From: a virus
Reading direction: 5' to 3' (one strand)
Length of the DNA: 64,000 nt
Virus record (IMG/VR): IMGVR_UViG_3300029486_000002
Span: 8,787-72,786 of that record
Each line of letters opens with the position of its first letter. Position 1 is the first letter of the stretch. A program made the translations under genes and the position numbers. This document shows, piece after piece, positions 395 to 38,661 of this stretch. The notes under the pieces are model-generated. The model did not search any database and had not been told where the DNA came from. It saw only the letters and a list, made by a program, of their open reading frames with translations.

Positions 395-641
395 ACCATT
401 TCATCTCGCGCCCGGCATGGCCCTTGCGAAGGTTCGACCCCTTCGGCGGGAACGCATAATCATAATCAGAGTATTTTTTGTTTAGCTGCTGCTGCGGTCC
501 GCGAGGATAGCGGCAGCCACAACGCCCACCATGCAGGCATGGCGCCAGGTTCGAGCTCCTGGATGGGCGACTGAAAATAATAAAATACGCATTAATATAT
601 AATTTATGCGTCATTAATTTGGTAGTTATAAATATTATTGC

Positions 642-653
642 TACCTTTGCAAC
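642..653 (+). promoter_or_regulatory. Bacteroidetes-type -7 promoter element TACCTTTGCAAC
   Basis: TAnnTTTG-like box about 35 nt upstream of the ATG at 689; the same TTTGCAAC core recurs at 5637, 11609, 38615 and 49460. Confidence 0.4.
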
Positions 654-3389: not shown

Positions 3390-3425
3390 AAAATAAATAA
3401 TAACAATAATAAAAAACGAAATATT

Positions 3426-3731
3426 ATGGCAACAAAGAAAGTTTATCCGTTTATTCATGCAGAGATGTTTGATCTTGAAGGCAACAACGACAGAAAGAAT
3501 GTTGTGTTTGACGCGCGAGAGGTCGAGAGCTATGAATCATGGTCAAGTAAAGACGATGAAGATGAACAAGAGTGCGTACAAGTCAATTTCAAATCGGGAC
3601 GAAAAATGTGTCTATACATGGAACTCGATCAAGAGCTTTACCCTGGCGACAATCTGATTACTGCAATCGACATGGTGCAGTACTCTCACTTCTGGCACGA
3701 CAACGAGGACTCTACTCCGGACGAGGACTAA
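3426..3731 (+). CDS. hypothetical acidic protein (101 aa)
   Basis: ORF track; D/E-rich with a terminal DNEDSTPDED. Confidence 0.45.
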   Translation: MATKKVYPFIHAEMFDLEGNNDRKNVVFDAREVESYESWSSKDDEDEQECVQVNFKSGRKMCLYMELDQELYPGDNLITAIDMVQYSHFWHDNEDSTPDED

Positions 3732-5439: not shown

Positions 5440-5620
5440 AACAATAAACACACAAACACATCCATACACAAACACACACATAAATATATAAATACATATA
5501 TACATTAATAAACAAAGCAACTAACAAATTAATCAACTAACAAAGCAATACACATACAAATGCACTTATAAACAAATTAAGCAATAAATAAACAAATAAA
5601 TGTGCATGGATATTTGTTTG
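5440..5620. repeat. G-poor A/C-rich low-complexity repeat tract (ACAAACA / ATAAACAAA / CAACTAACAAA units) upstream of parA
   Basis: About 180 nt with almost no G on the top strand; CAACTAACAAA occurs twice, ATAAACAAA at least four times. Confidence 0.5.
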
Positions 5621-5630
5621 TTTCAATTAT

Positions 5631-5648
5631 AATTCTTAAATTTGCAAC
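5631..5648 (+). promoter_or_regulatory. promoter AATTCTTAAATTTGCAAC (-7 TAAATTTG) for parA
   Basis: An identical 18-mer recurs at 11603; a close variant at 38609; TTTG about 18 nt upstream. Confidence 0.5.
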
Positions 5649-5717: not shown

Positions 5718-6584
5718 ATGGAAAGACTTAGAGAAGTGCTTGCCTTTGTAAACCACAAAGGCGGTGTAGGAAAAACAACAACGGTGCAGAGTTTAGCGAC
5801 CGGATTGCGCCGTTTTGGTAAAGGAAAATTCGGAGTGGATGCCGATGGACGCAAACGCTTGCCGCGTATGCTCATTATCGACCTTGATCCGCAGGCGTGT
5901 GCCTCGTTCCTCTTCGGATGGAGCGAGACTCAGAACGCAGGTAAGCCTACCGTTTACGACGCATTGGTACAGCAAAGCAATTTGCCCGTTTATCAGGTAC
6001 GTGAGGGAATTTACCTCGCGCCAGCTGCGTCGCAGCTTATATCCATAGAACCGTTTCTGAATCAGCGGGCATTGCCTCGCAAAGCCCTTTGTAAATTGCT
6101 CGCCAAGCCACTGAACGAGTTAGCAGGCACCGAACTGGCAGACGGAGGCGTGAACACCGTTATGGATGCTTTCGACTACGTGCTTATAGACTGCCCACCG
6201 GCTATGTCGTTGCTTACATACAATGCTCTCACAGCCGCTACGAGTGTAGTGCTGCCCGTGCAGCTCGAAGTGTTGGCAACAAAAGGTATTGCCGAAATCA
6301 TCAACGCCATCGAGGAAACACGTGAGGATCTTAATCCCGATCTTGACATTCGTGGCTTGCTGATGGTAATGAGCAACGACCAGACCAACGCCACAAAGGA
6401 GTTTAAGGCATATCTCGGCGAAAAGTATCAGGACTATATGTTTGACGCTTATACGCGCCGCGACACGAAGATGGTCGAAGCGCAAGCTATGCGAGAAGAC
6501 ATCTTTGCTTATGCACCGTATTGCAGGGTAGGGCAGGACTATGAGCGTTTTACCAAGGAGATAATCAACAGTTTCACTTTTTAA
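5718..6584 (+). CDS. parA: ParA/Soj-family partition ATPase
   Basis: Deviant Walker A NHKGGVGKTTT; LIIDLDPQA; VLIDCPP; 288 aa. Confidence 0.85.
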   Translation: MERLREVLAFVNHKGGVGKTTTVQSLATGLRRFGKGKFGVDADGRKRLPRMLIIDLDPQACASFLFGWSETQNAGKPTVYDALVQQSNLPVYQVREGIYLAPAASQLISIEPFLNQRALPRKALCKLLAKPLNELAGTELADGGVNTVMDAFDYVLIDCPPAMSLLTYNALTAATSVVLPVQLEVLATKGIAEIINAIEETREDLNPDLDIRGLLMVMSNDQTNATKEFKAYLGEKYQDYMFDAYTRRDTKMVEAQAMREDIFAYAPYCRVGQDYERFTKEIINSFTF

Positions 6585-7204: not shown

Positions 7205-7292
7205 AATACCTACGGATTTGTTTACCAATACCTACGGATTTGTTTACTTAAACCTACGGATTTGTTTACCAACTCCTGCGTTTTTGTTTACC
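7205..7292 (+). repeat. four tandem 22-bp iterons (AATACCTACGGATTTGTTTACC; the fourth copy is a degenerate AACTCCTGCGTTTTTGTTTACC)
   Basis: Exact 22-bp period read directly: 7205, 7227, 7249, 7271. Confidence 0.8.
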
Positions 7293-7332
7293 TCACTGTA
7301 GGTAACTGATTGATAATCAATACGCTCAAAAA

Positions 7333-7415
7333 CCCTTAATATAATATAATTATAAACTATGGATTTTTCGTTTTGAAAGAATAAAAGAATAGTTTATGTT
7401 ACATTATATTAAGGG
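7333..7415. promoter_or_regulatory. AT-rich region bounded by the inverted repeat CCCTTAATATAAT...ATTATATTAAGGG (candidate DNA unwinding element of a theta-type origin)
   Basis: 13-nt perfect inverted arms flank about 57 nt of >80% AT, between the direct and the inverted iterons. Confidence 0.5.
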
Positions 7416-7475
7416 AAATTGGAGGAGTTGAAAATCAACGAGTTAGAGCATACGAAGTAAACAAATATATAGGAG

Positions 7476-7541
7476 TTGGTAAACAAAAACGTAGGTTTTG
7501 ATACATAAAAACGTAGGTTTAAGTACATAAAAACGTAGGTT
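7476..7541 (-). repeat. three tandem 22-bp iteron copies in inverted orientation (core AAAAACGTAGGTT) abutting the rep start codon
   Basis: Copies at 7478, 7498 and 7520; the reverse complement AACCTACGTTTTT matches the iteron core; the last copy ends at 7541 and the ATG is at 7542. Confidence 0.7.
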
Positions 7542-9134
7542 ATGGCAAAGAAAGCGAAAAAAGAAGACAATGAAGGCAAACTTCAACATGCCTTGAACGA
7601 ATTGCGCTGGATAAACACACCTGTCAACTATACATCATACGCTAAAAGCTATTCTCTCATACAACAGGACGTTATGCTGTTGGTAAGCGGACGACTGCAA
7701 GACCATTTTGCCAAGTTTCTTAACGAACATCGTTATTTAAGCAAGGAACGACCCAATGGAGGTATAACGAAAGAAGACCTGTTGAAGATGGGACCGATAC
7801 GTTTGCGCCTGGCTGACTTCGGTATAGACAGCAGCCATTATGACGAGTCGGTAAAGGTGATAAACCAAATGAAGAAGATAGAGTTTCATTTACCGCGTTT
7901 CGATCCAGAGACAGGACTTAGAAAAGGTGAGGACTATATGCCTATATTCAGCAAGATATTTATCCCGAAGAACTTCACATCACGAGAAGGAGAAGATTTC
8001 AACAATTCGGGAGACGGAGAAACAAAGATAGACGAGGACGGACAGGAAGTGCGCAAGTTCCGTCGTGACGGATATATCGAGGTTACAATAAACATTGAGG
8101 TGGCAAAAGCCGTGTTTGATATGGCAGACGGATATTTCAATCATCTTGAACGTATCGCCTATTTCTGCAATTCGGCTTACACGTCACGTCTTTATCTTCT
8201 GTTGATGAAGTACGCGAGCAGGGGGCAGATGCACCCTGCTATAGATTATCGTGAGCTGAAGGAAGCATTGGGTATGTTTAAGGTCGATGTGGAAAAAAGT
8301 GAACAACCCGCAAAGGTTGTCACTACTGAGAAATATCAAAAGTTCTCACAGTTCCGCAAACAGGTGTTGGACGTGGCACGTGGTGACATGGAGCGACTGT
8401 GCGAGGAAAACAAGATAGAGATAATGCTATCGTGCATTGACCCCGACAAAAAAGGCTATGAACCTATTTATAGGGGTAGCGCCAAACGAGGCAATCCTGA
8501 AAAAATCAAGTTTCATATTAAGCGCACACCGTTGGGCTTGGCGAGAGAATTGGAGTTGCATCGTGGTTCGTCAGAAAAACGTTTGTGCGCCAAGTTAATG
8601 TCATTATATCCTACGCTCGACGAAGAACGGCTCAAGGCGTTTGTTGCTGACGTTCCCGAAGACCTTTGGAACGACTTTAAGGCGTATGCCTATAATGGAG
8701 TGCCGAAAGCGGTAGAGCAACCGCATAGATGGAATGGCACGGTGGAGGATTTCGTGTTTTACATTATGGAGCAATGGATAAAACAGCATAGTGTGAAGCA
8801 TGAAGCCCAGCAGCAGACGTTTGCGTTTGTCAAAGCGGAGGAAGTGAAGCCGAAACCGGGCGAAAGAGAATGGCAGCAGCTTGTGGCTATGCTTGACGGC
8901 GAAACAGGCGAGTGGCTGGGTAGTGAGATGTCGGACTTGTTGAAAAAAGTGACGCTTGATGATTATGACGGCAAGACTGTCCGGATTATTGCGACTCAGA
9001 AACAGGTGGCAGACATGGAGAATCTGCTGGGTAATAATGTACTAAAAAATAAATTCAGCCAATTACTTGGTCATTGTTTTAAAGGTGACAAACGTAAAAA
9101 GGTTCGTTTGGATTATAATAAAATAAAAAAATAG
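7542..9134 (+). CDS. putative replication initiator (Rep) protein (530 aa)
   Basis: Sits immediately downstream of iterons, an AT-rich region and inverted iterons, the standard order for iteron-plasmid rep genes; I recognise no named motif, so the assignment is by context. Confidence 0.55.
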   Translation: MAKKAKKEDNEGKLQHALNELRWINTPVNYTSYAKSYSLIQQDVMLLVSGRLQDHFAKFLNEHRYLSKERPNGGITKEDLLKMGPIRLRLADFGIDSSHYDESVKVINQMKKIEFHLPRFDPETGLRKGEDYMPIFSKIFIPKNFTSREGEDFNNSGDGETKIDEDGQEVRKFRRDGYIEVTINIEVAKAVFDMADGYFNHLERIAYFCNSAYTSRLYLLLMKYASRGQMHPAIDYRELKEALGMFKVDVEKSEQPAKVVTTEKYQKFSQFRKQVLDVARGDMERLCEENKIEIMLSCIDPDKKGYEPIYRGSAKRGNPEKIKFHIKRTPLGLARELELHRGSSEKRLCAKLMSLYPTLDEERLKAFVADVPEDLWNDFKAYAYNGVPKAVEQPHRWNGTVEDFVFYIMEQWIKQHSVKHEAQQQTFAFVKAEEVKPKPGEREWQQLVAMLDGETGEWLGSEMSDLLKKVTLDDYDGKTVRIIATQKQVADMENLLGNNVLKNKFSQLLGHCFKGDKRKKVRLDYNKIKK

Positions 9135-9846: not shown

Positions 9847-10140
9847 ATGAGTAGAAAGAAACAAGACATAATAGAGAACACCGAGCAGCCGGAAGTCACC
9901 TTACAAGACTTTGTTATCCCTGCCAAGATAGAAGCCTTTTGCGAAAAATACAAGCCGCTCGACCATTGGCGTGAAGACTGCGACATGTTCACCGACTATC
10001 AGCTTCGTACGTACTTCAAGGCAGTAGTATGTCCGTTGGGCGATCCGTTGGCATTGTACCTTCAGGAGTTGGCTGTGAGAGGCTTTAAGATGAAGGACGA
10101 TGAATGTGGAGAGCCTGTCATCTACGCTGCGCTAAGGTGA
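9847..10140 (+). CDS. hypothetical protein (97 aa)
   Basis: ORF track. Confidence 0.45.
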   Translation: MSRKKQDIIENTEQPEVTLQDFVIPAKIEAFCEKYKPLDHWREDCDMFTDYQLRTYFKAVVCPLGDPLALYLQELAVRGFKMKDDECGEPVIYAALR

Positions 10141-10145
10141 TTTTT

Positions 10146-10203
10146 GTTTTTGAATTTTGAATTATCGGCAAAGCCGATTTTGAATTGTCAATTTTGAATT
10201 TAG
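10146..10203 (-). repeat. TTCAAAA-repeat/palindrome element, copy a (reverse orientation; central palindrome ATCGGCAAAGCCGAT)
   Basis: Its reverse complement aligns with the copies at 18486 and 23911; flanked by GAATTTTGAATT units. Confidence 0.5.
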
Positions 10204-10208
10204 AATAT

Positions 10209-10733
10209 ATGAAGAAACCTCATTATTATTACAAGGTGTCGGCTACGTCTAATGTGGGTAGCGACATTCAGAAGTTTATGAACCGCTGCCAGGAAGCCGA
10301 GCAGAAGGCTCTTGATTGGGCTAAAAAACATGGAGCAGAGCACTATTACGAGTCGCCTGAAGGCATGGCAGGTGGAGTAGGAGCCGTGGAGTTTGCCGAC
10401 ACCACCGGACGTGACGGTTGGGATAAGGAAGTGTCGCCCGATGGTCGTGTGTTCTTCTTCCCCATCGAAGGCACCGACTTGGAAAAAGAGATGAATGCCC
10501 TGCCAGTCGTGAGTGAGGCAGAGCTGTTTTGCATACTTAACCTTCAGCCGAAGCGCACGAAAGACAACCTGCCTTTGCCCATGACGTTTGGAAATAGCAC
10601 GCCCATCGTGTTCCTGCATCAAGGCTACTGGTATGCCGACGTTCCGTATGTAAGTGCCGACATGACACTTACCCAGATAGAGGAAAAAGAGTTTTATCGT
10701 CGCAAGATGGCAGCGATAAACGAACGAAAATAA
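10209..10733 (+). CDS. hypothetical protein (175 aa from the ATG at 10209)
   Basis: ORF track 10185 (alternative start); the first ATG is at 10209. Confidence 0.5.
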   Translation: MKKPHYYYKVSATSNVGSDIQKFMNRCQEAEQKALDWAKKHGAEHYYESPEGMAGGVGAVEFADTTGRDGWDKEVSPDGRVFFFPIEGTDLEKEMNALPVVSEAELFCILNLQPKRTKDNLPLPMTFGNSTPIVFLHQGYWYADVPYVSADMTLTQIEEKEFYRRKMAAINERK

Positions 10734-11537: not shown

Positions 11538-11602
11538 TTAAATCGTTAAAAAAGATAAATACTGAAAAATAAAAGTAATTAAGCTATTGTTATTTATATT
11601 TT

Positions 11603-11620
11603 AATTCTTAAATTTGCAAC
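11603..11620 (+). promoter_or_regulatory. promoter AATTCTTAAATTTGCAAC (identical to 5631-5648)
   Basis: Exact 18-mer repeat; 22 nt upstream of the ATG at 11643. Confidence 0.5.
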
Positions 11621-17842: not shown

Positions 17843-17881
17843 ACAGAAAACAGTAAACAAATAAAAAACAACAAAAACAAA

Positions 17882-18487
17882 ATGGCAAGTTACAACGGCA
17901 ACATCGACTTGCTCTCCTTAAATGGAGCGCAGGTGTTCAAGGGTATCGACTCGAAAAACCCTGAGCGTGTATATGTCTGCATTCCGGCAGGCTTGAACGA
18001 AATTAAAGTGGAGCAGGCTCCTAAAGACCCTACTCGCACATTGGCTAAGTTGCGTGTAAACATCTGGCCACTCAACGAGCAGTACAAGGCTAAGGTGCGC
18101 CAGGCTGCTTTGGAGCGTGGCGACAGCAACGTGACCGTACCGACACACGAAATGCAGATGTCGTTTTCGGTTGACTATATCAAGGACATTGTACGGAAGT
18201 TTCCGAAGCTCGTAGAGCAAGTGAAGGAAGCCAACAAAGAACGCGACCCCGAGATTGTAAACCAAGACCCCACCGACGAGAATACTCACCTCTTCAAGGC
18301 TATCCGCCAGCGAATGAATAAGCGACTGGCTATGCTCTACCAGCCACAGACAACACAGCAACCTTCACCATACGCCACACCGAATGTAGGCGTAGCAGGA
18401 GCAGCTACCGGATATGTGGCGCCAGCCGAGAATACTGACCCACTCGCAGGCTATACCGATGCCGACGTAGGCGATCTGCCGTTCTAA
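17882..18487 (+). CDS. SSB-like protein (single-strand DNA-binding candidate) with a canonical acidic C-terminal tip
   Basis: Ends ...DADVGDLPF; compare the bacterial SSB ...DDDIPF partner-binding tip; preceded by a Gly/Ala/Pro-rich flexible tail; located between the primase-helicase and the clamp. Confidence 0.5.
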   Translation: MASYNGNIDLLSLNGAQVFKGIDSKNPERVYVCIPAGLNEIKVEQAPKDPTRTLAKLRVNIWPLNEQYKAKVRQAALERGDSNVTVPTHEMQMSFSVDYIKDIVRKFPKLVEQVKEANKERDPEIVNQDPTDENTHLFKAIRQRMNKRLAMLYQPQTTQQPSPYATPNVGVAGAATGYVAPAENTDPLAGYTDADVGDLPF

Positions 18488-18540
18488 TTCAAAATGCGCA
18501 ACGCGCATAATTCAAAACTCAAATTTCAAAATTCAAAACT
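18486..18540 (+). repeat. TTCAAAA-repeat/palindrome element, copy b (palindrome ATGCGCAACGCGCAT)
   Basis: AATTCAAAATGCGCAACGCGCATAATTCAAAACTCAAATTTCAAAATTCAAAACT; aligns with 23911-23980. Confidence 0.5.
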
Positions 18541-18541: not shown

Positions 18542-19732
18542 ATGAAGTTACAAGCCCTATCATCCAAAGCCCTGCACGCTGCCCTTAACAAGTCGGCAAA
18601 GTGTATCGGCTCTAAAAATCCCATTGCCATTTTCGACAATGTGCTGCTGACCTGCAACGAAAGCGGTCTGTTCTTTCTTACGTCATCTACAGCAGAAGCA
18701 CAGCTCACCATCCCGGCGCCCATTTCGTTGTGCGGTGGCAAGTTTGATAAGCCGATAGTGCTACCTATAAAGATGCTCAGTTCGCTGTTAGGCACACTGC
18801 CCGACTGCGTTGTCACTCTTGATATAGAGGAGGGTGGATCGTCGTTCACTGTAGAGTATTGCACCGGCAGTGGCGACAACGTTAAGTCGGGCAAGGCTAA
18901 AATGGCTTATTTCTCGGGCAACGAATACCCTCAGATGCTATTGCCCAAGAGTGAGGCATCAACAATTATTTGCCTGCCTTTTCAGTTGTTCCATTCTGTT
19001 ATAGATACTGCTGATAAGTTTGTTCAGATAGACGAACTTCGCCCCCAGCTTTCCAGCTTGTGTGTAGACATTGCCGACGACCGCTCAGAGGTGGTCTTTG
19101 CGGCTACGAACGGACATACGCTTGCAAAGATAGTACACAGCAATGATCCGCAGAAGGGTGGCAGTGATTTCTTCCGTAGTGGCGAGCCTCGCAAGACGCT
19201 TATCCACCGCAATTACTTCCGCACGTTGTCAGCCTTTGACGGATGCGAGGAGATCAGCATCGAGAACGACGGAAACACCATCCGTTTTTCGTCGGGCGAC
19301 ATCGAACTTATTTGCAAGCACATGGAGGGCAAATACCCTAACTACAGCGGCGTAATTCCGAAGTCCAACCCCTACTTCGTCGTATTTGACAAGAAGGAAA
19401 TGACTGACATCCTGCGCCGTGTCAGTCTGTTCTCAAGTAGCGCAAGCAATCTTGTAAAGGTAGAGAAGAACGGCATTTTCATCAACGTTTCTGCGAGTAA
19501 CATGGATTTTGCTTTGTCCGGCGAAGACCAGGTGCTCATATCTAACGCAGAGTGCCCCGACAATTTCCGCATCGGATTGAAGTCGTCGGCTTTTCAGACC
19601 TGTATCAACTCCATTCCGTCGGACACCATACGAATGCAGTTGCTTGACGCTTCGCACGCCGTAGTGCTCACCGCTGACACACCTGCGCCTAAAGTGATGA
19701 CGCTTGTGATGCCGATGCTGCTTGACGATTAA
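18542..19732 (+). CDS. dnaN: DNA polymerase III beta sliding clamp
   Basis: NPIAIFDNVLLTCNE matches PILGNLLL; RPQLSSLCVDIADDRSEVVFAATNGHTLA matches RYYLNGMLFETEGEELRTVATDGHRLA of E. coli DnaN; about 400 aa; the start is taken at the second ATG because the first lies inside the repeat. Confidence 0.85.
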   Translation: MKLQALSSKALHAALNKSAKCIGSKNPIAIFDNVLLTCNESGLFFLTSSTAEAQLTIPAPISLCGGKFDKPIVLPIKMLSSLLGTLPDCVVTLDIEEGGSSFTVEYCTGSGDNVKSGKAKMAYFSGNEYPQMLLPKSEASTIICLPFQLFHSVIDTADKFVQIDELRPQLSSLCVDIADDRSEVVFAATNGHTLAKIVHSNDPQKGGSDFFRSGEPRKTLIHRNYFRTLSAFDGCEEISIENDGNTIRFSSGDIELICKHMEGKYPNYSGVIPKSNPYFVVFDKKEMTDILRRVSLFSSSASNLVKVEKNGIFINVSASNMDFALSGEDQVLISNAECPDNFRIGLKSSAFQTCINSIPSDTIRMQLLDASHAVVLTADTPAPKVMTLVMPMLLDD

Positions 19733-23068: not shown

Positions 23069-23812
23069 ATGAAAATCCCCGAACAATATAGTCCTTGTAA
23101 AGAATTAGCCGATCTATGCGTTGATAGAGAAGGCAACTTTCTTTATCGTGGAAAGCCTAAAGCCGTAATTCGCCCTGTTAGTAGGCACGGTAAAAAGCTA
23201 ACGGCTCGCATTGCCATTATGCGTGAGAGAAAGCAGATGTATTTTTCTGCCGCCCAGCTTGTCGCTTCTGCTTTCATCCCCGGGTACGATAATCATGCGT
23301 ATATAGAATATAAGGATGGAGACATACATAACATTTGTGCTGACAATCTCAGCATCGTCACGAAAAAAGATTATTATGTAGCTCGCATGGCCGTAGCCAA
23401 CTATTATCACAAGCGAGGCACTTATCAGTATCAGGTAGAACGCATAGAAAATACCATTTTTGATGCCCAAGCCGTATTGCATTATTTCAAGACGGGAGAC
23501 ATGAGCGAGGTAAACAAGCGAGTGGAAACCTACCTGTTTGAATGTTTGATGCTCTACTGCGTCAAAAGCCTACACCTCTCTGAGCAGACGGCATACGAAT
23601 ATGCCGCAGATGTGATTGTTCGGATGTACGATGTATTGTTGTCCGGTCATGCCGTATCTAATCTCGAATATTATTGCAAGGAATTGCTCTTGCATCGCAA
23701 ACGCCATAAGGCCTATGGGTTTAAAGGCACGATAAAGAAAGAAATCAAATTGATGATAAAAGATTTGGATTTGACGCCCATTCAAGAAAAGTATGATGTG
23801 TCGATAGTCTAA
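23069..23812 (+). CDS. HNH endonuclease (HNH_3-type)
   Basis: IEYKDGDIHNICADNLSIVT fits the H-x-DG-x-NNx-x-NL-x-x-T HNH signature; convergent with the terminase. Confidence 0.65.
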   Translation: MKIPEQYSPCKELADLCVDREGNFLYRGKPKAVIRPVSRHGKKLTARIAIMRERKQMYFSAAQLVASAFIPGYDNHAYIEYKDGDIHNICADNLSIVTKKDYYVARMAVANYYHKRGTYQYQVERIENTIFDAQAVLHYFKTGDMSEVNKRVETYLFECLMLYCVKSLHLSEQTAYEYAADVIVRMYDVLLSGHAVSNLEYYCKELLLHRKRHKAYGFKGTIKKEIKLMIKDLDLTPIQEKYDVSIV

Positions 23813-23900: not shown

Positions 23901-23910
23901 ATATCATGGA

Positions 23911-23980
23911 AAACTCAAAATTGAACAATTCAAAATGCGCATAGCGCACAAATCAAAACTCAAAATTCAAAACTCAAAAA
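23911..23980 (+). repeat. TTCAAAA-repeat/palindrome element, copy c (palindrome TGCGCATAGCGCA)
   Basis: AAACTCAAAATTGAACAATTCAAAATGCGCATAGCGCACAAATCAAAACTCAAAATTCAAAACTCAAAAA. Confidence 0.5.
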
Positions 23981-23984
23981 TCCC

Positions 23985-25976
23985 TTATCTTCCACTCGGC
24001 AGCACAAACCAACCGCCACCGCCACGGAAGAATTTGTAACCTAAATACAGAGTATCGAAGGCATCCGTGAAGTCGGTACGTTGCTGTAAGGGCAGTGTGT
24101 CCTCACTTTCTGGCTTCTTTTCGCCCGACTTATCCTTATGAAATCCTTTGTACGAAATCTGCACTTCGCAGAGCTGCATGGCTATGATAAGATCGGGGTT
24201 GTTTATTTGGTTAATACGGATGGCGGGGTAGGAGAGGTGAGCAAGACCGTCGTTAATGATTTGATGTTTCACCTCATGCTTTTCTGGCGCACCCATGTCT
24301 ATTGCTGTCACGTTCCAACCTCGTTTCTCCAGTTCTGCAATCACTATCATATAGAAGCGTTCGTCGCTCGAAGCGTACGAGGCTCCCTGCTTGGCAGTGG
24401 AATCGTAGAAATACGTCACGTCGCGGTTGATGGCTCGCTTCGGAGCGTAGTAGTCCGAAAAATCGGCAATTAGTTCGCGTAGTTTGCGCTCGTTCTTTAC
24501 GTAAAAACTCTTTATCACATTCAGACACTCCATGCCGTCACGCGCGTAGCCTTGTCCCACAACGAGTGTATTGATGTTAGCGTTATAGTCGAGAGCTATA
24601 TATAGAGGCAGGGAGTTGATGCAGTCGGAATCCATGCGGCAGTCGTTGCGCTCGGCGAGTTCCTGGAAGTCGGGTTGGTAACTCTCGCTTGTGATGCGTT
24701 TGCCGTTGATGATGCCACTTACCTTTTGTGTGCTAAAATTCGCCTGATTAAGAACATCATCATCTGGGATATAACCGTGAACATGATCAATGTCGAGGTT
24801 GGAATAAAAGCCATCGTTCGATTTCTGTATCTTGACGTTAAGAATTGAGACCGCGAAGGTGTATGGCGGAAGGTCACGCTTCATCTGACGAATATAGTCT
24901 TCGCCCAAAATATCCACATTGTCGAGCGATGACGCACGGCGCACGCAGAAAGCCACACGGCGCAGCTCACGCAGATAACCATCAGTGAACTTCTTTGAGC
25001 GCAGAAACATCTGCATCTCGAAATCTTCTTCTGGCGTGATAAGATACTCATAATCGTAAATTAGTTCGGCATCGTCCTGTGGAATGAGTTTATAGTTGAC
25101 AGCCATCTCCACCATGCCCTTTGTGACGTGTTGGCCATGGTTGGGCATTATCTTGAACTGTCCCTCATGCTTCATCATCTTCAGAGCCACGGCACGGATC
25201 ATCGTGCGCAAATCCTTCGGCACCACATGTACTGAGTGCCCCGTCTTCTTGGCGTTATACAGCAGGTCGTTGTAGCGTATCACCTTATTTGCATAATCCT
25301 CCAACTGCTTCTGCACCCATCGGTAAGTCTTGCCCTTGAACGGACCCGTCTCTACGGTCAGGTCCAGTTTCTCCTCCTCTTTCTCCAGCCACGAACCTTT
25401 GGCAGTGAGCGAGGCATCCGAGAGAAAGCGTGTTGATTTATACATCGGGTTGTGGTCAGAGAAGTTGATGTCGCCCAGCGGATGCGTCTGACCTGAAAGA
25501 GCCGGCATCAATTCGTCTGTTACTTTCTTATACGGGAAGAATCTCGCCTCGTCGCCCACCATTGCCGAGAACGTGTAGGAGTTGGCAGAGGCAGTCTGCG
25601 AGAGAGAAATAAGAACCCATCCGGCACCATTCGCCAGCCAAATGTAGTTGTCGTAGTTCTTAGGTTTGAAGATACTCTCGCGAGCATGTTTCGGTGGTCG
25701 TCCCCACCCAAAGTGAATGCCCTGCGTAAAGCCGAACATACGCTCCATAGCCGCCATCGTACTCGGTATGGTCTTGCCGAAGCCCTGTTGACGCGACACA
25801 GCCACCCATGCGCCGAGCATACCAGGCATAGAGTTGCTTGCCGTCCAGACGTAAGGAGCCACCAAACCATCGGTCTTACCCACACGGCGGGCAGCAATCA
25901 CTCGCTCGTCTTTGGCTCCCATGTATAGCGACTGCTGCTGGAACTTAGTTAAGTAAATATTATGTGCTTGCTGCAT
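23985..25976 (-). CDS. terL: terminase large subunit
   Basis: Walker A RRVGKTDG; Walker B ...MVGDEARFF; C-terminal nuclease-like LDYNANINTLVV and FYDSTAKQG; 663 aa. Confidence 0.8.
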   Translation of the reverse strand: MQQAHNIYLTKFQQQSLYMGAKDERVIAARRVGKTDGLVAPYVWTASNSMPGMLGAWVAVSRQQGFGKTIPSTMAAMERMFGFTQGIHFGWGRPPKHARESIFKPKNYDNYIWLANGAGWVLISLSQTASANSYTFSAMVGDEARFFPYKKVTDELMPALSGQTHPLGDINFSDHNPMYKSTRFLSDASLTAKGSWLEKEEEKLDLTVETGPFKGKTYRWVQKQLEDYANKVIRYNDLLYNAKKTGHSVHVVPKDLRTMIRAVALKMMKHEGQFKIMPNHGQHVTKGMVEMAVNYKLIPQDDAELIYDYEYLITPEEDFEMQMFLRSKKFTDGYLRELRRVAFCVRRASSLDNVDILGEDYIRQMKRDLPPYTFAVSILNVKIQKSNDGFYSNLDIDHVHGYIPDDDVLNQANFSTQKVSGIINGKRITSESYQPDFQELAERNDCRMDSDCINSLPLYIALDYNANINTLVVGQGYARDGMECLNVIKSFYVKNERKLRELIADFSDYYAPKRAINRDVTYFYDSTAKQGASYASSDERFYMIVIAELEKRGWNVTAIDMGAPEKHEVKHQIINDGLAHLSYPAIRINQINNPDLIIAMQLCEVQISYKGFHKDKSGEKKPESEDTLPLQQRTDFTDAFDTLYLGYKFFRGGGGWFVLPSGR

Positions 25977-25978
25977 TG

Positions 25979-26206
25979 TTATCCTGATGTTTTATGTCCT
26001 ATATGCCATTTATTGCACGTCCTGCACCGGTACACCGTATATCCCCGTGCTTTGAGATTCGGGTTCTCTTGTAAGAACTCCCAAGCATCATCCTCGGTCT
26101 CGTATGCTTCCTTCGCCTTCCATGAGTGCTGCTTGCGAGTGTAGTGCTCGGGGTCCGGCTTGAACGGCGGAATTTTATTGAAGTATTTGTGTCGGTTGTT
26201 ATTCAT
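25979..26206 (-). CDS. small zinc-ribbon protein
   Basis: RCRTCNKWHIGH; 75 aa; stop/start 3 nt from terL. Confidence 0.45.
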   Translation of the reverse strand: MNNNRHKYFNKIPPFKPDPEHYTRKQHSWKAKEAYETEDDAWEFLQENPNLKARGYTVYRCRTCNKWHIGHKTSG

Positions 26207-30442: not shown

Positions 30443-31018
30443 ATGGCAAGATTTATCTCTCCAGTACAATCGCCCTTCGCTCCATTGTCGCGTATCGCGC
30501 CGCTGTATCTCAGTCAGACCCTCATGGACCTTGAGGCAAACATGCAGGCACAACGCTTTTATCCAACAGAAGTATATCGAGGTTACGAGGAGATAAACCA
30601 ATACCGTAGAGAGCACGGTATGTGGTGGTCTACGGGCGAGGGAGCAAAGTCGTTCGATGGACATATCTATCAGGCAGATGATACGTCGGGGTTGCTCACG
30701 GTAGGCATCCGCTACAATGACTATCTGCGCTACGTTGACCTTGGTGTCGGCTTGACAGGACACCCGTCCGACCCTGCCGCCCATATTACAGCAGACGTGG
30801 TAGATCGTCAACGTCCGGCAAGAAACGCCAAACGTTACATTCGTGGCAAATGGAATCGTAGGCAGGGTAAGTCACACCGTCCTGCCATCCTACGAACCAT
30901 TCGCCGACTGCGTGACCGATACCGCAACTATCTTGCCGACTTCTATGGCTATCAAGGAGCTATAGATATTATACAAGCTCTCGAAGGCTTTGGCGAACAC
31001 GCCAAGTCTACATTCTAA
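30443..31018 (+). CDS. hypothetical protein (191 aa) immediately upstream of the tape measure gene
   Basis: ORF track; the position is typical for tail assembly chaperones. Confidence 0.45.
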   Translation: MARFISPVQSPFAPLSRIAPLYLSQTLMDLEANMQAQRFYPTEVYRGYEEINQYRREHGMWWSTGEGAKSFDGHIYQADDTSGLLTVGIRYNDYLRYVDLGVGLTGHPSDPAAHITADVVDRQRPARNAKRYIRGKWNRRQGKSHRPAILRTIRRLRDRYRNYLADFYGYQGAIDIIQALEGFGEHAKSTF

Positions 31019-31043
31019 ACACTAACACAACACAAAAACAGAT

Positions 31044-34000
31044 ATGGCAAATTTGAAGACCGAAGTAATCCTTACGATGAACGGCAAGGCTGCTATCCAG
31101 GTGCTCGAAGCCCTGAGAGATAAAGCCAAGTCAGTGAGAGAGGAAATAGACCATCTCGACGAGAAAGCCCCCGATTTCAAGCAGCGCAAAGCCGGGCTGG
31201 AAGAAGTGTATAAGGCTTTGCAGTCAGCTGAAACGGATGTTATAAAAGGCACGGAGCGACTGGACCATGCCCTTCAGAATCTTACATCAACATCACTCCA
31301 AAACCTCCGCAAGGCTTTGGGCGACGGTCGTCGTCAGTTGCAAAGTCTGTCAGAAGATGAGCTGAAGGAAAACGAGGAAATACGCAAGAAAATGAAGCAG
31401 GTGGGCGACCAGGTCCGCTTGCTTGAAGGTCAGTATGTCAAGATCCCCGATGGATTAAAGAATATAAAGAACCAGTCAGACCAATGGCTCGACAAGGCCA
31501 TCAAGCAACAACGCGACCTCGTAGGCTCATTGGAAAAATCGGATGCGTCGTATCAGCAGAATCTCGCCACATTGAAGCAGCTGGAAGCCGAGGAGGATAG
31601 ACGCAAGGGCAAGATGAGCGTGTTGGAGGCACGTCAGACTGTAAGCAATGGTAATGCTTCGGCATCTGATTTGCGTCGAGCCAAGGCTACACTTACCGAG
31701 AAGCGCGACAATACGCCTACTAAGTACTACGATGAAATTGGAGACTATAACCGCGAACTTCAGGAGATAGAGAAGCGACTGGAGGCTGTGTCGGGCAAGA
31801 CTCAGAAAGCATCAATGAGTTGGAAGCAGATGAAGCAGGTATTGGCTGAACCCAACAAGGCTTCGGGCGAAGATATAAAGCGTACAATGGAAGTGATACA
31901 GCAGAAGATACAGCAGCTTCCTGCTGGCAGCAAGTATGTAGCCGACCTTCGTCGCCAATACTCCATGCTCGAACAGACTCTCAAGGGTACACGTATGTCG
32001 CAGAGTGCCCTCAACGACATTCTCACTCGTAGCAAGCAGGGTAAGGCTTCCCTCGACGAACTGCGCCGTGCTTACAAGCAACTCGAAGAGGAACTAAACC
32101 AAATCAACACCAAGAGCAAGGAGTTTGCCGATAAGCAGAAGTCGATGAAGGAGCTGAAGAAGAACATCGACGAGGTGACGGGTGCAGCCAACAAGCTGAG
32201 TGGGGCATGGCATACAGCACTGAAGAACCTCACGGCATACGTTGGATTGTTTGCAGCGTTCAACAAGGCGAAAGAACTTGTGACGGGTGCCATTAAGAAG
32301 AATTTGGAGTATTCAGGTTCGTTGACCGACATCCGTAAGGTCAGCGGTCTGACTATGGAGGAAGTAAAAAAACTCTCTACTGAGTTGGCCAAAATAGACA
32401 CCAGAACATCCGTTGATGGACTGGCACAGCTCGCGTACCAGGGTGCGAAGCTCGGTATGGGCAAGTATGGTGTTGAAGGTATGGCCCAGTTCGTAAGAGC
32501 CGCGGATCAAATCAATGTAGCCATTGGTGAGGAGATGGGCGAGGAAGCTCTTCCGGCACTCTCTAAGATGGTGGAAGTTATGGGACTTATTCCGAAAATG
32601 GGTATCGAGAAGGCTATGGAGGCTACAGGCTCTGCCATGTTTAAGTTGTCTTCTACGAGCACATCTACTTCCAACGACATTGTGGAATTTTCTAAGCGAC
32701 TGACGGGTGTTGCTCGTACCGCGGGTATCACAACCGACCAGTTGCTCGCCCTCGGTTCGGCAAGTTCTTCGATGATGCTTATGCCGGAGGTGGCTTCTAC
32801 GGCTATGGGTAAGTTTATCGTAGCTTTGCAGAAAAACCACAACCTTATTGCAAAGGAACTCGGCATACCCGACGAGACCATTAAGAACCTCTATGCGTCG
32901 GGTCACGCTATGGATGCTATCGTGCTTGTACTTGAGAAGATGCGCGACAAGGGTAATATGAATGCCTTGGGCGGAATTTTTAAGGACCTCGGCTCTGACG
33001 GTCAGCGACTCGTTACCGCTATGGTTACGATGTCGAAGAACGTGGATATGCTCAAGGATCATCTCTACGAGTCGGAAGAGGCATTCCGTGAAGCCACAGC
33101 CGTAGGTAAAGAATACTCGATGCAGCAGCAGAGTGCCATCGGTATTCTCGAAAGAGCTAACAACCTTTGGGAAAAGGCGTTTGTCAATCCTGACGGTGTA
33201 GACGCTGTAAAGGGTATGGCGGAATGGTGGTATGAGATGTCGGCAACGATGACAAGCAGTCCGTTACTGAAAGGCACATTGCTTGTTTCTCTTCAGATGG
33301 TTCTTATAGCATTGAAAGCCGTAGCGTCCCTTTTGCCGGTAATCATTGGCTATATAGCTTCACAGGGTCTTTATTCTGGTTTGACCCTTCTGTGGCAATA
33401 CTTGACAGCACTGGGCGTAGCGGTAAAGAGTATGTTTCAATATGCAAGAGCTCTCTTCACGGCTAATGCAGCGCAAAGCACGTTGAACAAGACTATGAAG
33501 CTAAACCCCTGGATAGCTCTCGCGAGTGTCATTGTCGGCGTGGCAGGAGCTATATATGGATATACACAACGTGCAAAGGAGGCGGCTGAAGCAGCGAAGG
33601 AAGCTGAGAGACAGGCAAACGCATGGAAATCCACCCTCGGTCAGGCAGCGATAGAAACGGAAAACTTGAAGGATAAGCTCAAGAACTATAAGCGAATGTT
33701 GAGCGAGGCAAACCTTTCACAAAAGGACCGTCAAGGTCTTATCTCAAGATTTAACAGTGATTTCCGCTCGTACATCAATAATCTCGGCATTGAGATAAAA
33801 AACGTCAAGGATTTACGCGACCATTATGCCGATTTGGCGCAGGAGGCCGAAAGAGCTACCTATTATCGTATGCGTGAGCAAGCAAAGCAAAAGGCCTTGC
33901 CTAAGCTGGACAATGACGTAAACACGGCTTCCAATGCAGTTATGGAGAATATAACGAAGTTGGGATTAGACAAACTCGGTGTGAAGTTTAAGGATATATA

Positions 34001-37000
34001 CCGGTGGGTGAAAGCAGGAATGAGTGCCAAAGACATTACTCTGAAACTGGCGAAAATGTTACCGAGGGAAAAGACAGGATTGGTTGATGGGCTTAACTGG
34101 AAGATAGGCAAGGAGGGTTACATCTACCGTGATACCTATGATAAAGACCATAAAGCTGCCCCCGCTACTGACTTTCAAACGCAGACTGAACTCGCCGAAA
34201 TGTATCGCGACAACCTCTGGTTTGTCAATGCTTACAAAAGGAAAGCAAAGAAATTAAAGCAGATTAACAAGGCTTTCATCAACTGGGTGGACGATGACTA
34301 CCAACCAACTCCTCCCGAGACACCCGGTACTCTCGAAAACAACGCTCCCGATAAGGACGCTATTGCACAGGAAAAACGAGACAAGCGCGACCGTGAGCGT
34401 GCTTGGCGTGAGGAGTTGAAGCAGAAGCAGGATCAGGCGAAGGCTATCATGGATGACGTGGACAACTACTACGACCGTCAGATTAACGCTAAGTTGGCTC
34501 AAGCCATGTCTCTTAATATGGATAAGACCGAGCAGGAACAGTTAGTTCTTCTTTTGAGGCAAAAAAAAGAAATTGCTCGTTCGCAGGTGCGTCTTGCTGT
34601 TGCAGGTAAACCGAATAAGTGGGAGGATGCGAAGAAGATGATGACTGCTGATATGGTGGAGCAAGCAGATGAGACGGGTGTAAATCTTTCGGAAAATTTG
34701 CTTGACGGTATATTGAACAACAATATCGGCAATCTACGCAAACTCATGGAGCAGTTTGGTAAAAATCTCGGTTTGTCTATGAACTCCATCACGGCAGAGA
34801 TTTTTGCAAAAGCCACTCGTAGCGAGCAGAAAATTCTGAAAATGAACCTCAAGCAGATGGAGGCTCGCCGTAAGATTGCTATGGAGCATGACTATACGGG
34901 CATTGTTCAGCAGAACTCGTATGACAGCTTTAACGAAATGGGTTTTGCAGCCCCTACGAAGGAAGAGACTACTGTCACCAAAAAAATGGTTGATGGAAAG
35001 GAGATTCTTGATACGTCTGCTTTTGATAAGCGCAGAAAAGCTATTAAGGATATGTACGAGACAGCTCGCAAGGAACTCGCCCAGCTATATACCATTGATG
35101 TATCAACAACGGATGGTAAGGGAATGCTGATGAAGATGCTCTTTGGCGATGATCCTGACGGTATGGCTGCTCGAATAAAAGCGTCATTGGGCGAAAGCGA
35201 GGAAAGCTGGAAGGCTTTTTACTTGAATCTTATCCAGTATTCGGATAATTACGCGGAAGCCGAAAAGAAAAAGTACGACTCGACAAAGAAAATCTTAGAT
35301 TTCTGGTGGTCTTCCAATAAGCGCAATCTTGCCCAGCAGGACAAATTGCGCAAAATACAGAATGAGAGCAATCTTTTCGGCAAACGCACAAACCTTCTTT
35401 CTAATCTCGGTCTCGCCAATCTTACAGCCGACCCTGAGATTGAATTGATGAAGGCTCGTATGCAAGCAGCTGAAGATTATTACGCCTTTGTGGAACGTAA
35501 CACGAAGAACAAGCAGCTTATCGACGAAGCCGAACGTGCTCGTCAGGAGGCGGAACTTGCTTATGCCAATCAGATGGCAACAGCCATGAAGTCGCGTCTC
35601 TCACAGATGAAGGAACTCGTACAGCCCATCGAGGATTTCGGTGCTGCCGTAGGACAGGCTCTTGCCGAGATGCGCTACGATGCCGAGAGTGCAAACGACG
35701 CTATTAGGTCTGCCCTTAAATCCATGCTAGAATCATGGGGAAAGATGGCTCTCAACGATGTCAACACGCAGATGTGGAAAGCCATTAATGACGCAGCAGC
35801 CAAGCGAGGAAAGAAAAACGCACAGCCCGACATTGAGGCGGCGCGTGCTAATGCCGACGCTAATGCGGTAACGATGAATACGTCGGATATTGGCACGGCG
35901 GGTAATCCTGCTCATGTAATAGTGGATAATGAAACAATGCCATCGGATTCTATGTCGGACAAAAAGACAGATGTCGTTGTGCACTCGGAACCTGGTGGAC
36001 CTGATGCGCTTCCCACGGTTGCTCACAAGGATTTGCCTGCACCGGCTTCTCCTATTTTGGTACCAAACAATACCGAAAGGCATGGGGCAGGAGGGCTTTT
36101 TAAGAGTGTCGCCCCCGACACTCTGCCTTCTTATCCGTCGAAAGACAAAGTTAGCGCAGAACTCCCCGTAACAATAAAAGATGATAATGTTGTTGACTCT
36201 CGTTCTAATTCTCAGGAAAAGTCGGATTTGCAGCACGATTCTCTTTCGCGCGTAGAAGAGAAGAGAAGGGGTAATTTCCCATCTGATTTTCATCCCGATC
36301 TATACCCTGAGATTGCAGGCAATTCAAAGAAAGAAAGTCCTGTACCTTCGGTTGATACAAAAAAATACGAACCGCAGGCAAACGCAGCACTAAAGCGTGC
36401 GCATAATAACAATAACCTTCAAAATGAAGAACGTCGGGAGGGTGTTGTTGGTTTAGGCGATATACAAGAAAATGTTCGAGGTCTTTTAGAAGTTGCTAAG
36501 GATTTACAAAGCAAGGTCTCGGATAGAACAGATAGCAATGTTGGTAGTCCGGCGGAACAAACAGAGGAATCGGATTCTTCTGCAAATTCCACGTCGTATT
36601 TCGATCCTGCTCATCGCACACAAAAAGCCTTGCCCGCAGATGCTCAGGAATCTCAAGGCAAAGTTCGCAAATCGCCTTCAAATCAAAAACAAGGTTCTCC
36701 AGCGTTAAAGGGCGTAGCAGAACAGGCAGGAGATTCTTTTGCTGATGCTATTACGGGACAATCTTCCTTTGCTGAAGCAGGTGCAGGAATTGTAATGGGC
36801 GGAGTAAATGCTGCTCTTAATGCAGATCTCGGTGACAGTAAGAAGAAAAAGAAAGAGGAAAAGCAGCGCAAAAAACAGCTTCGAGAAGAGAAGAAGCACC
36901 AAAAAGCTCTTTCCAAAGAGGTTAAGCAGGGCACAAAGGAGCGCGAGAAGACTACCGACAAGGGCGTGAAGAATATGACCGTCGCAACGGAGCAAGGAAA

Positions 37001-37838: not shown

Positions 37839-37923
37839 CCTTCCGTAAGCTGCCTTTGCAGTAATTCGCAAGTAGTAAAGCATTTCTCTTGCGCTATTTT
37901 TCGTAATCAACAAAGCATTTATT

Positions 37924-38626: not shown

Positions 38627-38661
38627 CGATATGATAACCCAGTTATTTCTACTTATAAAAT

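What the first reader, a model, noticed from the sequence alone, without database searches (positions are those of the whole stretch)
18486..18540. Three copies of a ~60-bp TTCAAAA-repeat element whose central palindrome covaries (10146-10203 rev, 18486-18540, 23911-23980)
Each copy has TTCAAAA(C/T) octamer repeats flanking a 13-15-nt perfect palindrome. The palindrome sequence differs between copies (ATCGGCAAAGCCGAT / ATGCGCAACGCGCAT / TGCGCATAGCGCA) while staying palindromic. This compensatory change argues for a conserved hairpin or cruciform structure rather than one fixed protein half-site. The copies sit at operon boundaries: before 10209, between SSB and dnaN, and between the HNH and terminase genes.
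Basis: seen in the sequence. Interest (0 to 1): 0.6.

Follow-up and report, generated by a model that had tools for sequence, protein, structure and literature searches.

The report
Host-derived palindromic repeat in a Prevotella phage
The three TTCAAAA-plus-hairpin copies are real, but they are not a private phage signal: they belong to a short palindromic repeat family found in large numbers in Prevotella/Leyella chromosomes and shared with the phages of those bacteria.

Summary
A covariance model finds exactly three copies in the window (E 4e-13 to 4e-9; next best 0.4), and the hairpin covaries. Across 32 distinct copies, three stem pairs swap G-C for C-G, 91% of cells pair, and 0 of 500 shuffles match this.

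The element is not phage-specific. The same roughly 75-nt unit gave 377 hits in 849 kb of Prevotella / Leyella stercorea / P. merdae DNA, next to housekeeping genes. It also occurs in several phage lineages.

The usual form is an inverted pair (here "T-L") with the heptad arms facing outward. The reverse order was never seen. Whole pairs, including their unique inner spacers, recur at unrelated loci at 90-96% identity. Orthologous sites show presence/absence differences without a clear target duplication.

I read this as a REP/BIME/REPIN- or MITE-like mobile palindromic repeat. In one orientation it gives a hairpin followed by UUUUGAAUU, which looks like a terminator (copies A and C). Copy B, the flagged one, is a solo half in the other orientation, and its hairpin is decaying in relatives. 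The mobilising enzyme and any effect on transcripts are inferred, not shown.

In passing: in the host clade, 23S_rRNA_IVP genes sit inside these inverted pairs.

The parts
10133..10206 (-). Copy A, full unit, reverse orientation ('T' relative to the + strand genes). The heptad run 10141-10161 (TTTTTGTTTTTGAATTTTGAATT) starts right after the TGA of gene 9847-10140. Hairpin ATCGGC-AAA-GCCGAT lies at 10164-10178, followed by TTTTGAATTGTCAATTTTGAATTT, and the ATG of gene 10209-10733 is about 31 nt after the hairpin.
   Evidence: I5/I6; terminator-like on + strand; 70.8 bits, E 4.9e-10
18485..18540 (+). Copy B (the flagged one), a solo half in 'L' orientation that matches only model positions 21-76. 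The stop codon of the SSB-like gene 17882-18487 overlaps its 5' end. Hairpin ATGCGC-AAC-GCGCAT lies at 18494-18508. Four heptads (18511-18538) run up to the dnaN ATG at 18542.
   Evidence: D12; dnaN = phrog_947; 65.4 bits, E 4.4e-9; relatives L016, L017, L018, L024 and L081 carry a full inverted pair at this site
23906..23981 (+). Copy C, full unit. It reads as hairpin + TTTTGAATT on the minus strand, directly after the stop (23985) of the minus-strand putative large terminase 23985-25976. Hairpin TGCGC-ATA-GCGCA lies at 23936-23948, the heptads at 23953-23979, and the small dyad TCAAAATTGA at 23915-23924.
   Evidence: 88.4 bits, E 4.2e-13; the same site is occupied in relatives L018, L024, L032, L072, L098, L101, L111, L112, L121 and L125
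23860..23903 (+). Ordinary terminator-like hairpin GAAGGGCAG...CTGCCCTTC followed by GCCCTTTTAT, serving the + strand gene 23069-23812. It is not part of the repeat, but it lies just upstream of copy C at this convergent junction.
   Evidence: sequence; conserved next to copy C in relatives
25968..26002 (.). Empty site. Relatives L111, L133 and L176 carry a 177-185 bp inverted pair here, with flanks 83-88% identical to the window.
   Evidence: c76, c109, c163

Best explanation
The three copies belong to a dispersed palindromic repeat family of Prevotellaceae (Prevotella, Leyella stercorea, P. merdae) that also populates the genomes of their phages.

One unit is about 75 nt: AAYTCAAAAWTGAAYAAYTCAAAAT, then a 5-6 bp G+C stem with a free 3-nt loop, then (A/Y)AATTCAAAA followed by 2-5 more YTCAAAA heptads. 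The natural module is two units head to head. This gives a 150-250 bp imperfect palindrome with the heptad arms pointing outward (T-L), comparable to a BIME/REPIN or a MITE.

Shown: the module is copied as a whole to unrelated intergenic sites. It varies in copy number and in presence/absence between related genomes. It can lose either half.

Inferred: spread uses a host enzyme that recognises the hairpin with its conserved feet in single-stranded DNA. A REP-associated (RAYT) or IS200/IS605-type HUH tyrosine transposase is the obvious candidate, acting in trans on replicating phage DNA.

Inferred effect on expression: when a gene is transcribed into the U-rich side (T orientation), the RNA ends in a G+C hairpin followed by UUUUGAAUU. 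That is a weak intrinsic terminator or a 3'-end protecting hairpin, as for copy A after gene 9847-10140 and copy C after the terminase gene. In the opposite orientation (copy B) the unit only supplies a G-free, A-rich leader that abuts the start codon. Copy B is best seen as the surviving passenger half of a former pair.
For: Window: exactly three copies.

Relatives: more than 50 distinct copies with one consensus and covarying stems.

An HMM found 377 copies in 849 kb, beside sufB/sufC, prfB, der, era, ackA, icd and dxs-like genes (gene names are read from N-terminal sequences, my knowledge). In all of IMG/VR the strict core occurs in only 59 stretches.

Architecture between co-directional host genes: TL 25, TLL 23, TLLL 6, TTLL 5, L 13, T 11, and never LT.

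Duplicative spread: 12 pairs of non-orthologous loci share whole modules, including unique inner spacers, at 90-96% identity. Similarity stops at the outer heptads.

Presence/absence and copy-number differences occur at orthologous sites in hosts and phages, with no convincing target-site duplication.

Intergenic-type neutrality: 28% of convergent, 20% of co-directional and 18% of divergent spacers carry the element, not significantly different.

Terminator-like anatomy in the T orientation. In long spacers the cluster sits 15-45 nt after the upstream stop (13 cases near the stop, 2 near the start). Hairpins are perfect in 82/95 T copies against 98/142 L copies (Fisher p = 0.003).

Literature: REP-associated transposase subclasses occur in Bacteroidetes (PMC6006769), and MITEs shared by hosts and their viruses, including Prevotella phages, have been reported in bulk (PMC11602168).
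Against: No transposase was found. No HUH/Tyr-motif ORF occurs in about 1.5 Mb of fetched loci.

No target-site duplication or fixed target was seen, so ectopic gene conversion or recombination between heptad arrays could explain the spread instead of transposition.

The terminator reading is weak in several ways. Stems are only 5-6 bp and the U run is 4 U. Many copies have TTAGGAA in place of TTTTGAA after the hairpin. Copy A is followed 31 nt later by a gene with no room for its own promoter. Modules often fill whole short spacers between genes that must still be expressed. The C-site hairpin has a mismatch at the loop-closing pair in the closest relatives (L001).

The T versus L hairpin difference rests on copies that are not phylogenetically independent. 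Gene calls were a naive longest-ORF method, which placed 31 of 377 host copies 'inside' an ORF.
Confidence: 0.68

Rival explanations
1. A phage-evolved regulatory signal: a family of intrinsic terminators or transcript-boundary hairpins that the phage uses to structure its operons.
For: Hairpin plus T-run in all three copies on one strand. A and C follow stop codons in that orientation. The terminase-site copy is kept in relatives whose proteins are roughly 60-100% identical to the window's.
Against: The identical element is far more abundant in host chromosomes. Copy B is in the non-terminating orientation inside a run of same-strand genes. Whole modules with unique spacers are copied between unrelated loci. 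A related phage lineage lacks the element entirely. An intrinsic terminator would not require near-invariant flanks.
Confidence: 0.12
2. A DNA-level protein-binding array. The contiguous YTCAAAA heptads, and the TTCAA-AA-TTGAA dyad, would be iterated sites for a host or phage DNA-binding protein such as a nucleoid, partition or repressor protein. The hairpin would be a secondary feature, and orientation would then be irrelevant.
For: Heptad positions 2-7 are about 95% conserved over hundreds of copies, while the loop is free. A second heptad variant, TTCCTAA, substitutes in blocks. There is no bias among intergenic types. Either half can be lost at a given site.
Against: No candidate protein was identified. 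The strict outward-arm geometry (never LT) and the covarying G+C stem are not explained by linear iterons. Conservation of the flanks is equally expected for a transposase recognition sequence or from recent copying.
Confidence: 0.12
3. A hairpin promoter for a phage RNA polymerase, as in coliphage N4 (5-7 bp stem, 3-nt loop, three copies), or another phage-specific promoter driving dnaN and other genes.
For: The stem and loop dimensions and the copy number resemble N4 early promoters (my knowledge). Many L-oriented copies lie 25-45 nt upstream of start codons.
Against: The largest ORF is a tape-measure protein (phrog_25337/28), and no RNA polymerase was seen among the proteins scanned. Two of the three window copies point away from any gene they could drive. 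The element is abundant in host chromosomes. In host locus L172 a sequence fitting the Bacteroidota -7 motif (TATTTTTG) lies upstream of an L copy, which would put the element inside the 5' leader (the motif is from my knowledge).
Confidence: 0.03
4. An RNase III-type processing site. In a read-through transcript, the U-rich arm of T pairs with the A-rich arm of L to form a roughly 60-bp duplex that is cut, separating cistrons. This would resemble T7 intercistronic sites or the stems of 23S rRNA intervening sequences.
For: The pair at the SSB-dnaN site of L024 folds at -94 kcal/mol (z = -15.9), and another pair folds at -58.7 kcal/mol. 23S_rRNA_IVP genes sit inside such pairs.
Against: It applies only to pairs, and the window phage has only solo halves, which form 6-bp stems. 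It does not explain dispersal. It is compatible with the best explanation, as an effect rather than a rival origin.
Confidence: 0.1

Closest known systems
REP / BIME / REPIN elements of Proteobacteria (with RAYT, the REP-associated tyrosine transposase)
   Same: Short G+C hairpin with conserved feet. Extragenic, with many copies per genome. Several stem subfamilies occur in one genome. The typical unit is two inverted copies forming a larger hairpin that is copied as a whole. Located next to gene ends, where REPs are known to act as mRNA 3' stabilisers or attenuators (my knowledge; PMC6006769 for definitions).
   Different: No GTAG-type tetranucleotide. The arms are arrays of an A-rich heptad (YTCAAAA). 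The host is Bacteroidota. No RAYT has been linked so far. Copies are also present in phage genomes.
Bacterial MITEs such as Correia elements of Neisseria, and the host-virus shared MITEs surveyed in PMC11602168
   Same: A 150-250 bp non-coding palindromic module in intergenic DNA, variable between strains and shared between host and phage. Correia elements also alter transcription and are cut by RNase III (my knowledge).
   Different: No target-site duplication was seen and no parent insertion sequence is known. The termini are heptad arrays of variable length, and half-units are common.
Rho-independent (intrinsic) terminators
   Same: In one orientation there is a G+C stem, a short loop, then UUUUGAAUU. 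T-oriented copies sit 15-45 nt after stop codons.
   Different: Near-invariant 30-nt flanks, dispersal as a unit, frequent occurrence in the non-terminating orientation, and a short stem and U-run.
Coliphage N4 virion-RNA-polymerase hairpin promoters
   Same: 5-7 bp stem, 3-nt loop, three copies in a phage genome.
   Different: No such polymerase gene was seen, the orientations are inconsistent, and the element is mainly chromosomal in the host.
23S rRNA intervening sequences carrying a 23S_rRNA_IVP (PF05635) ORF
   Same: Inverted arms forming a long stem that encloses an IVP gene. In the host clade, IVP genes sit inside T...L pairs.
   Different: The sites here are between protein genes, not in rRNA. 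The window phage has no IVP gene, and no excision has been shown.

Membership tests
REP/BIME/REPIN | Short imperfect palindrome able to form a stable stem-loop, structure conserved | tested here: met
   5-6 bp G+C stem with three covarying pairs and 91% of cells paired
REP/BIME/REPIN | Extragenic and present in many copies per host genome | tested here: met
   377 hits in 849 kb of host loci, many contigs per genome, housekeeping neighbours. 346 of 377 are outside naive ORF calls.
REP/BIME/REPIN | Inverted doublets that replicate as a unit | tested here: met
   T-L order only, never L-T. 12 non-orthologous pairs of whole modules at 90-96% identity.
REP/BIME/REPIN | A cognate RAYT (Y1 HUH transposase) gene, usually flanked by the repeats | tested here: inconclusive
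RAYT subclasses are known in Bacteroidetes (PMC6006769).
REP/BIME/REPIN | Conserved guide tetranucleotide (GTAG-like) at the 5' foot of the hairpin | tested here: not met
   The foot is AAAAT / A(Y)AAT, with no GTAG. A different conserved foot is present.
MITE | Terminal inverted repeats bounding a short non-coding element | tested here: met
   The outward heptad arms plus hairpins form inverted termini of 150-250 bp modules
MITE | Target-site duplication at insertions | tested here: not met
   Filled versus empty sites show no consistent duplication. The best case has only a 4-nt ATGA repeat.
MITE | A related autonomous insertion sequence with the same termini | tested here: inconclusive
   No transposase-bearing version was seen. 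The only ORF found inside modules is a 23S_rRNA_IVP gene.
Intrinsic terminator | G+C hairpin immediately followed by a U-rich tract on the transcript | tested here: met
   Met for copies A and C on the transcribed strand and for T-oriented copies in general. Not met for copy B, whose terminator-like strand is antisense to the flanking genes.
Intrinsic terminator | Transcripts actually end there | not testable with these tools
   No RNA 3'-end data are available
N4-type hairpin promoter | Cognate phage-encoded RNA polymerase, and copies oriented towards the genes they drive | tested here: not met
   The largest ORF is a tape-measure protein. A and C point against the neighbouring genes.

The most novel reading that the evidence does not exclude
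The T-L module may be the ORF-less form of a so far undescribed mobile element whose full version consists of the same inverted heptad/hairpin arms enclosing a 23S_rRNA_IVP four-helix-bundle gene. This is the same layout as ORF-bearing 23S rRNA intervening sequences. Under this reading the element family moves between Prevotella chromosomes and the genomes of phages replicating in them. It would give the IVP protein family (relatives of the DGR accessory protein Avd) a first functional context. It would also provide a live case of host repeats colonising phage DNA.
Probability: 0.2. Interest if true: 0.7.

Novelty: new member of a known kind. Interest (0 to 1): 0.45.

Why it matters
It changes what the three copies mean. 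They are a shared host-phage repeat rather than a phage regulatory code.

That gives a sequence-only host assignment for a very common, uncultured human-gut phage: its DnaN is indexed in 441 blocks of the assembly collection, Hadza samples included. The assigned host group is Prevotella/Leyella.

It also documents a REPIN/MITE-like family in Bacteroidota with unusually clear anatomy (heptad arms, covarying stem, strict outward geometry). This could be used to look for the enzyme that moves it and to test whether host repeats enter phage DNA during infection.

The side observation, that 23S_rRNA_IVP genes sit inside these modules, offers a testable lead on a protein family of unknown function.

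Tried and rejected
1. Chance A-rich similarity: rejected.

2. crAss-like or N4-like virion RNA polymerase promoters: I first suspected the 2264-aa ORF, but it is a tape-measure protein, and the orientations do not fit.

3. Bacteroidota sigma-A promoter inside the element (TTTG, 19-21 nt, TAnnTTTG; motif from my knowledge): by-eye spacing checks on both strands did not fit. The L strand has no TTTG at all.

4. Known RNA families: Rfam at gathering threshold finds only a tRNA in the window. A permissive search of the pairs gives only sub-threshold plant miRNA-precursor models, that is, generic long hairpins.

5. GenBank phages: no near match to the region and no match to the element, though the low-complexity filter may hide it.

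6. Literature: string searches for the heptad arrays and searches for Prevotella repeats, REP and MITE found no description of this family. One search failed on syntax. The supplement of PMC11602168 is not held.

7. Target-site duplications at filled versus empty sites: none convincing.

8. RAYT-like motif scan of all fetched loci: nothing.

9. Depletion from divergent spacers, as expected for a pure terminator: not seen.

10. G-U versus A-C bias of stem mismatches in the transcript sense: too few cases to decide.

Full report
**The observation**

I write each in the orientation that shows TTCAAAA.

- Copy A (window 10206 to 10133, minus strand): ...AAATTCAAAATTGACAATTCAAAAT-CGGCTTTGCCG-ATAATTCAAAATTCAAAAACAAAAA.
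- Copy B (18485-18540, +): AATTCAAAAT-GCGCAACGCGC-ATAATTCAAAACTCAAATTTCAAAATTCAAAAC, followed directly by TTATG of dnaN.
- Copy C (23906-23981, +): AAAACTCAAAATTGAACAATTCAAAAT-GCGCATAGCGC-ACAAATCAAAACTCAAAATTCAAAACTCAAAAA.

B and C are 89% identical over 53 nt, and A is their inverted counterpart. The heptamer alone is not enriched in the window. A covariance model built from related copies finds exactly these three sites at E 4e-13 to 4e-9, and nothing else better than E = 0.4.

**The genome around it**

The window belongs to a tailed phage:

- a tape-measure protein at 31044-37838;
- a DnaN-like clamp at 18542-19732;
- an HNH protein at 23069-23812;
- a weak large-terminase match at 23985-25976 on the minus strand.

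It has no near relative in GenBank phages. Its DnaN sequence is indexed in 441 blocks of public assemblies, including Hadza gut samples.

The 'SSB' label for 17882-18487 has no profile support. The protein does end in the typical ...GDLPF tail (read; the motif is from my knowledge).

**Relatives**

Loci around DnaN homologues, and pattern scans of IMG/VR, gave more than 50 distinct copies. They share one consensus: AAYTCAAAAWTGAAYAAYTCAAAAT, then T-SSS-C nnn G-SSS-A, then (Y)AATTCAAAA(YTCAAAA)2-5.

Conservation differs sharply by region:

- The flanks are nearly invariant.
- The outer T-A pair and the loop-closing C-G pair are invariant.
- The three middle pairs occur as GCGC, CGGC or CGCC with the matching complement.
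- The loop is free.

On 32 distinct copies the three middle pairs show changes on both sides in 13, 13 and 9 rows. 91% of cells pair, 0 of 500 shuffles reach the covariation score, and slid registers fail.

One caveat applies. At a single orthologous site, the one after the terminase gene, different relatives carry different stem classes. That would need six coordinated substitutions. The variation therefore reflects replacement by other family members more than stepwise compensatory mutation.

**Architecture**

In relatives, the spacer between the SSB-like gene and dnaN holds two units head to head (L016, L017, L018, L024, L081). The order is: stop codon, (TTTTGAR)n, hairpin, TTTTGAATTGTTCAAT..., then ...AAYTCAAAATTGAAYAATTCAAAAT, hairpin, (AATTCAAAAY)n, ATG.

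I call the first half T, because the transcript carries the U-rich strand with a hairpin followed by UUUUGAAUU. I call the second half L, because the transcript carries the A-rich strand.

The window phage differs from its relatives at two sites:

- At the SSB-dnaN site it kept only L (copy B).
- At the spacer before gene 10209 it kept only T (copy A). There, L024 and L121 have T-L, and L125 has only L.

Copy C lies at the convergent junction after the terminase gene. It is in T orientation for that gene, next to an ordinary terminator that serves the opposite strand.

A pair can fold into a duplex of about 60 bp as RNA: -94 kcal/mol with z = -15.9 for one pair, and -58.7 kcal/mol for another.

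**The decisive result**

A strict core pattern was scanned over one genome per bacterial species. Almost all were Prevotella, Leyella stercorea or P. merdae, with many contigs per genome.

An HMM of the unit finds 377 copies in these 849 kb. The neighbouring ORFs look like sufB, sufC, prfB, der, era, ackA, icd and dxs (names are read from the N-terminal sequences, my knowledge). The copies are therefore chromosomal, not prophage-borne.

The same strict core occurs in only 59 stretches of the whole IMG/VR collection. It is found both in relatives of this phage and in contigs that share no gene with the window. Close relatives have three strict copies per contig. One relative of 83 kb (contig 114438) has at least ten.

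**Behaviour of the family**

- Order. Between co-directional host genes the order of copies is TL (25), TLL (23), TLLL (6), TTLL (5), L (13) or T (11), and never LT. The module always has its heptad arms outward.
- Position. In long spacers it sits 15-45 nt after the upstream stop codon.
- Spacer type. It is not significantly biased among convergent, co-directional and divergent spacers.
- Copying. Twelve pairs of loci with unrelated flanks share entire modules, unique inner spacers included, at 90-96% identity. Similarity ends in the outer heptads.
- Polymorphism. Orthologous sites differ by presence/absence or by number of units, in hosts and in phages, with no consistent target-site duplication.
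- The window has an empty site at 25968-26002 where three relatives carry a pair.
- One related phage lineage (L021-L023, 75% DnaN identity) has no copy at all, only heptad-like remnants.

**What it is**

These properties define a REP/BIME/REPIN-like or MITE-like repeat: a small structured palindrome, extragenic, in high copy, doubled in inverted orientation, copied as a unit, and turning over quickly.

Free loops, structured G+C stems and invariant feet are what recognition by a hairpin-binding single-strand DNA enzyme would give. REP-associated tyrosine transposases are known in Bacteroidetes (PMC6006769). I could not test for one. Recombination between heptad arrays remains a possible alternative way of spreading.

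MITEs shared between hosts and their viruses, Prevotella phages included, have been reported in a bulk survey (PMC11602168). I found no description of this particular family.

**What it does**

This part is inference.

In T orientation the anatomy is that of a weak intrinsic terminator or 3'-end hairpin. T copies follow stop codons closely. Their hairpins are intact more often than those of L copies: 82/95 against 98/142, p = 0.003. That comparison does not correct for relatedness.

Several facts argue against a strong terminator:

- the stem and the U-run are short;
- TTAGGAA often replaces TTTTGAA after the hairpin;
- modules often fill whole short spacers between genes that must still be expressed;
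- copy A is followed 31 nt later by the next gene;
- the hairpin at the C site has a mismatch in the closest relatives.

Copy B, the flagged one, cannot terminate sense transcription. Its hairpin shows A-C, G-U or other mismatches in relatives L008, L009, L011 and L012. Its heptads form the G-free, A-rich leader directly before the dnaN ATG. I read it as the leftover half of a pair.

**Rejected readings**

An N4-type hairpin promoter, a phage operator and chance similarity are rejected for the reasons given under the rival explanations. Rfam has no matching family.

**Seen in passing**

Genes in the host loci are normally bracketed L-gene-T: 26 cases, against 3 of the opposite geometry. Two of those three opposite cases enclose a 23S_rRNA_IVP gene (PF05635, E 5.5e-27).

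A metagenome scan with that protein extended this. About 40 loci carry homologues at least about 73% identical together with element copies. Nearly all of them have a T copy 33-90 nt upstream and L copies 26-110 nt downstream of the gene. They fall into several paralogue groups, with two copies on one contig in two cases. More distant homologues have no element.

The IVP gene therefore sits inside the module, as it does inside the stem of some 23S rRNA intervening sequences. The window phage has no IVP gene.

**Verdict**

The element is a host-derived dispersed palindromic repeat, not a phage-specific regulatory code. It is a new family of a known kind. The IVP association is the most novel lead.

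Noticed in passing
window 7205-7292 and 7457-7553: Two arrays of a 22-bp iteron (AATACCTACGGATTTGTTTACC, about 4 copies each) in inverted orientation. They flank an A+T-rich dyad region (7303-7445), directly upstream of the 530-aa gene 7542-9134, which has weak Rep3 (WH1) similarity. This is probably the replication origin and its initiator.
   Followed up: partly
window 619-653, 5614-5648, 11586-11620, 38592-38626: Four copies of a 35-nt motif ending TTAAATTTGCAAC (TTG...TAnnTTTG type). It fits the Bacteroidota sigma-A promoter consensus (my knowledge), and each copy lies ahead of a block of + strand genes.
   Followed up: no
host loci L192:5192-5575, L241 about 5960-6320 (minus strand), metagenome loci L301-L335 and L350-L354: Genes of the 23S_rRNA_IVP family (PF05635) lie inside the inverted T...L module, with a T copy upstream and L copies downstream. 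This is the opposite of the usual L-gene-T bracketing. It is seen in about 40 loci and several paralogue groups of the Prevotella clade, and not in more distant homologues.
   Followed up: partly
window 25968-26002: Empty site between the terminase start and the next gene. Relatives L111, L133 and L176 carry a 177-185 bp T-L pair there.
   Followed up: yes
L120:605-951, and host locus L244: One T copy followed by five tandem L copies with a longer 7-bp stem and 4-nt loop (TTGCGAC-GYAY-GTCGCAA). L120 is a 4.2-kb IMG/VR 'viral' contig that is about 95% identical to host locus L244, so it is probably host DNA.
   Followed up: partly
L021-L023 (positions about 5960-6010), relatives with 75% DnaN identity: This related phage lineage has no copy of the element. 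Only heptad-like remnants (TTTAAAACTTAAATTTAAAACTTAA) remain before dnaN. This suggests the element is dispensable and perhaps host-dependent.
   Followed up: partly
window 17856-17892, 31018-31054, 46024-46060 (also 3409-3432, 60161-60184): A family of C/A-rich, G-poor leaders (ACAAAAACA...ATATGGCAA) directly upstream of ATGGCAA start codons, including the tape-measure gene.
   Followed up: no
window 60540-61314: Four copies of a 21-nt motif, TGTATTGATAGAATATGATTA, spaced 138-473 nt apart, each ending at an ATG. These may be starts of small paralogous genes.
   Followed up: no
window 37839-38661: An 820-nt stretch with no ORF of 60 aa or more and about 40% G+C, lying between the tape-measure gene and the next promoter-like motif. 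It contains several hairpins, for example GGTCGTCACGCC...GGCGAGGCGACC near 37926-37955.
   Followed up: no
window 44167-44241: A tRNA-Met gene (anticodon CAT) on the + strand.
   Followed up: no
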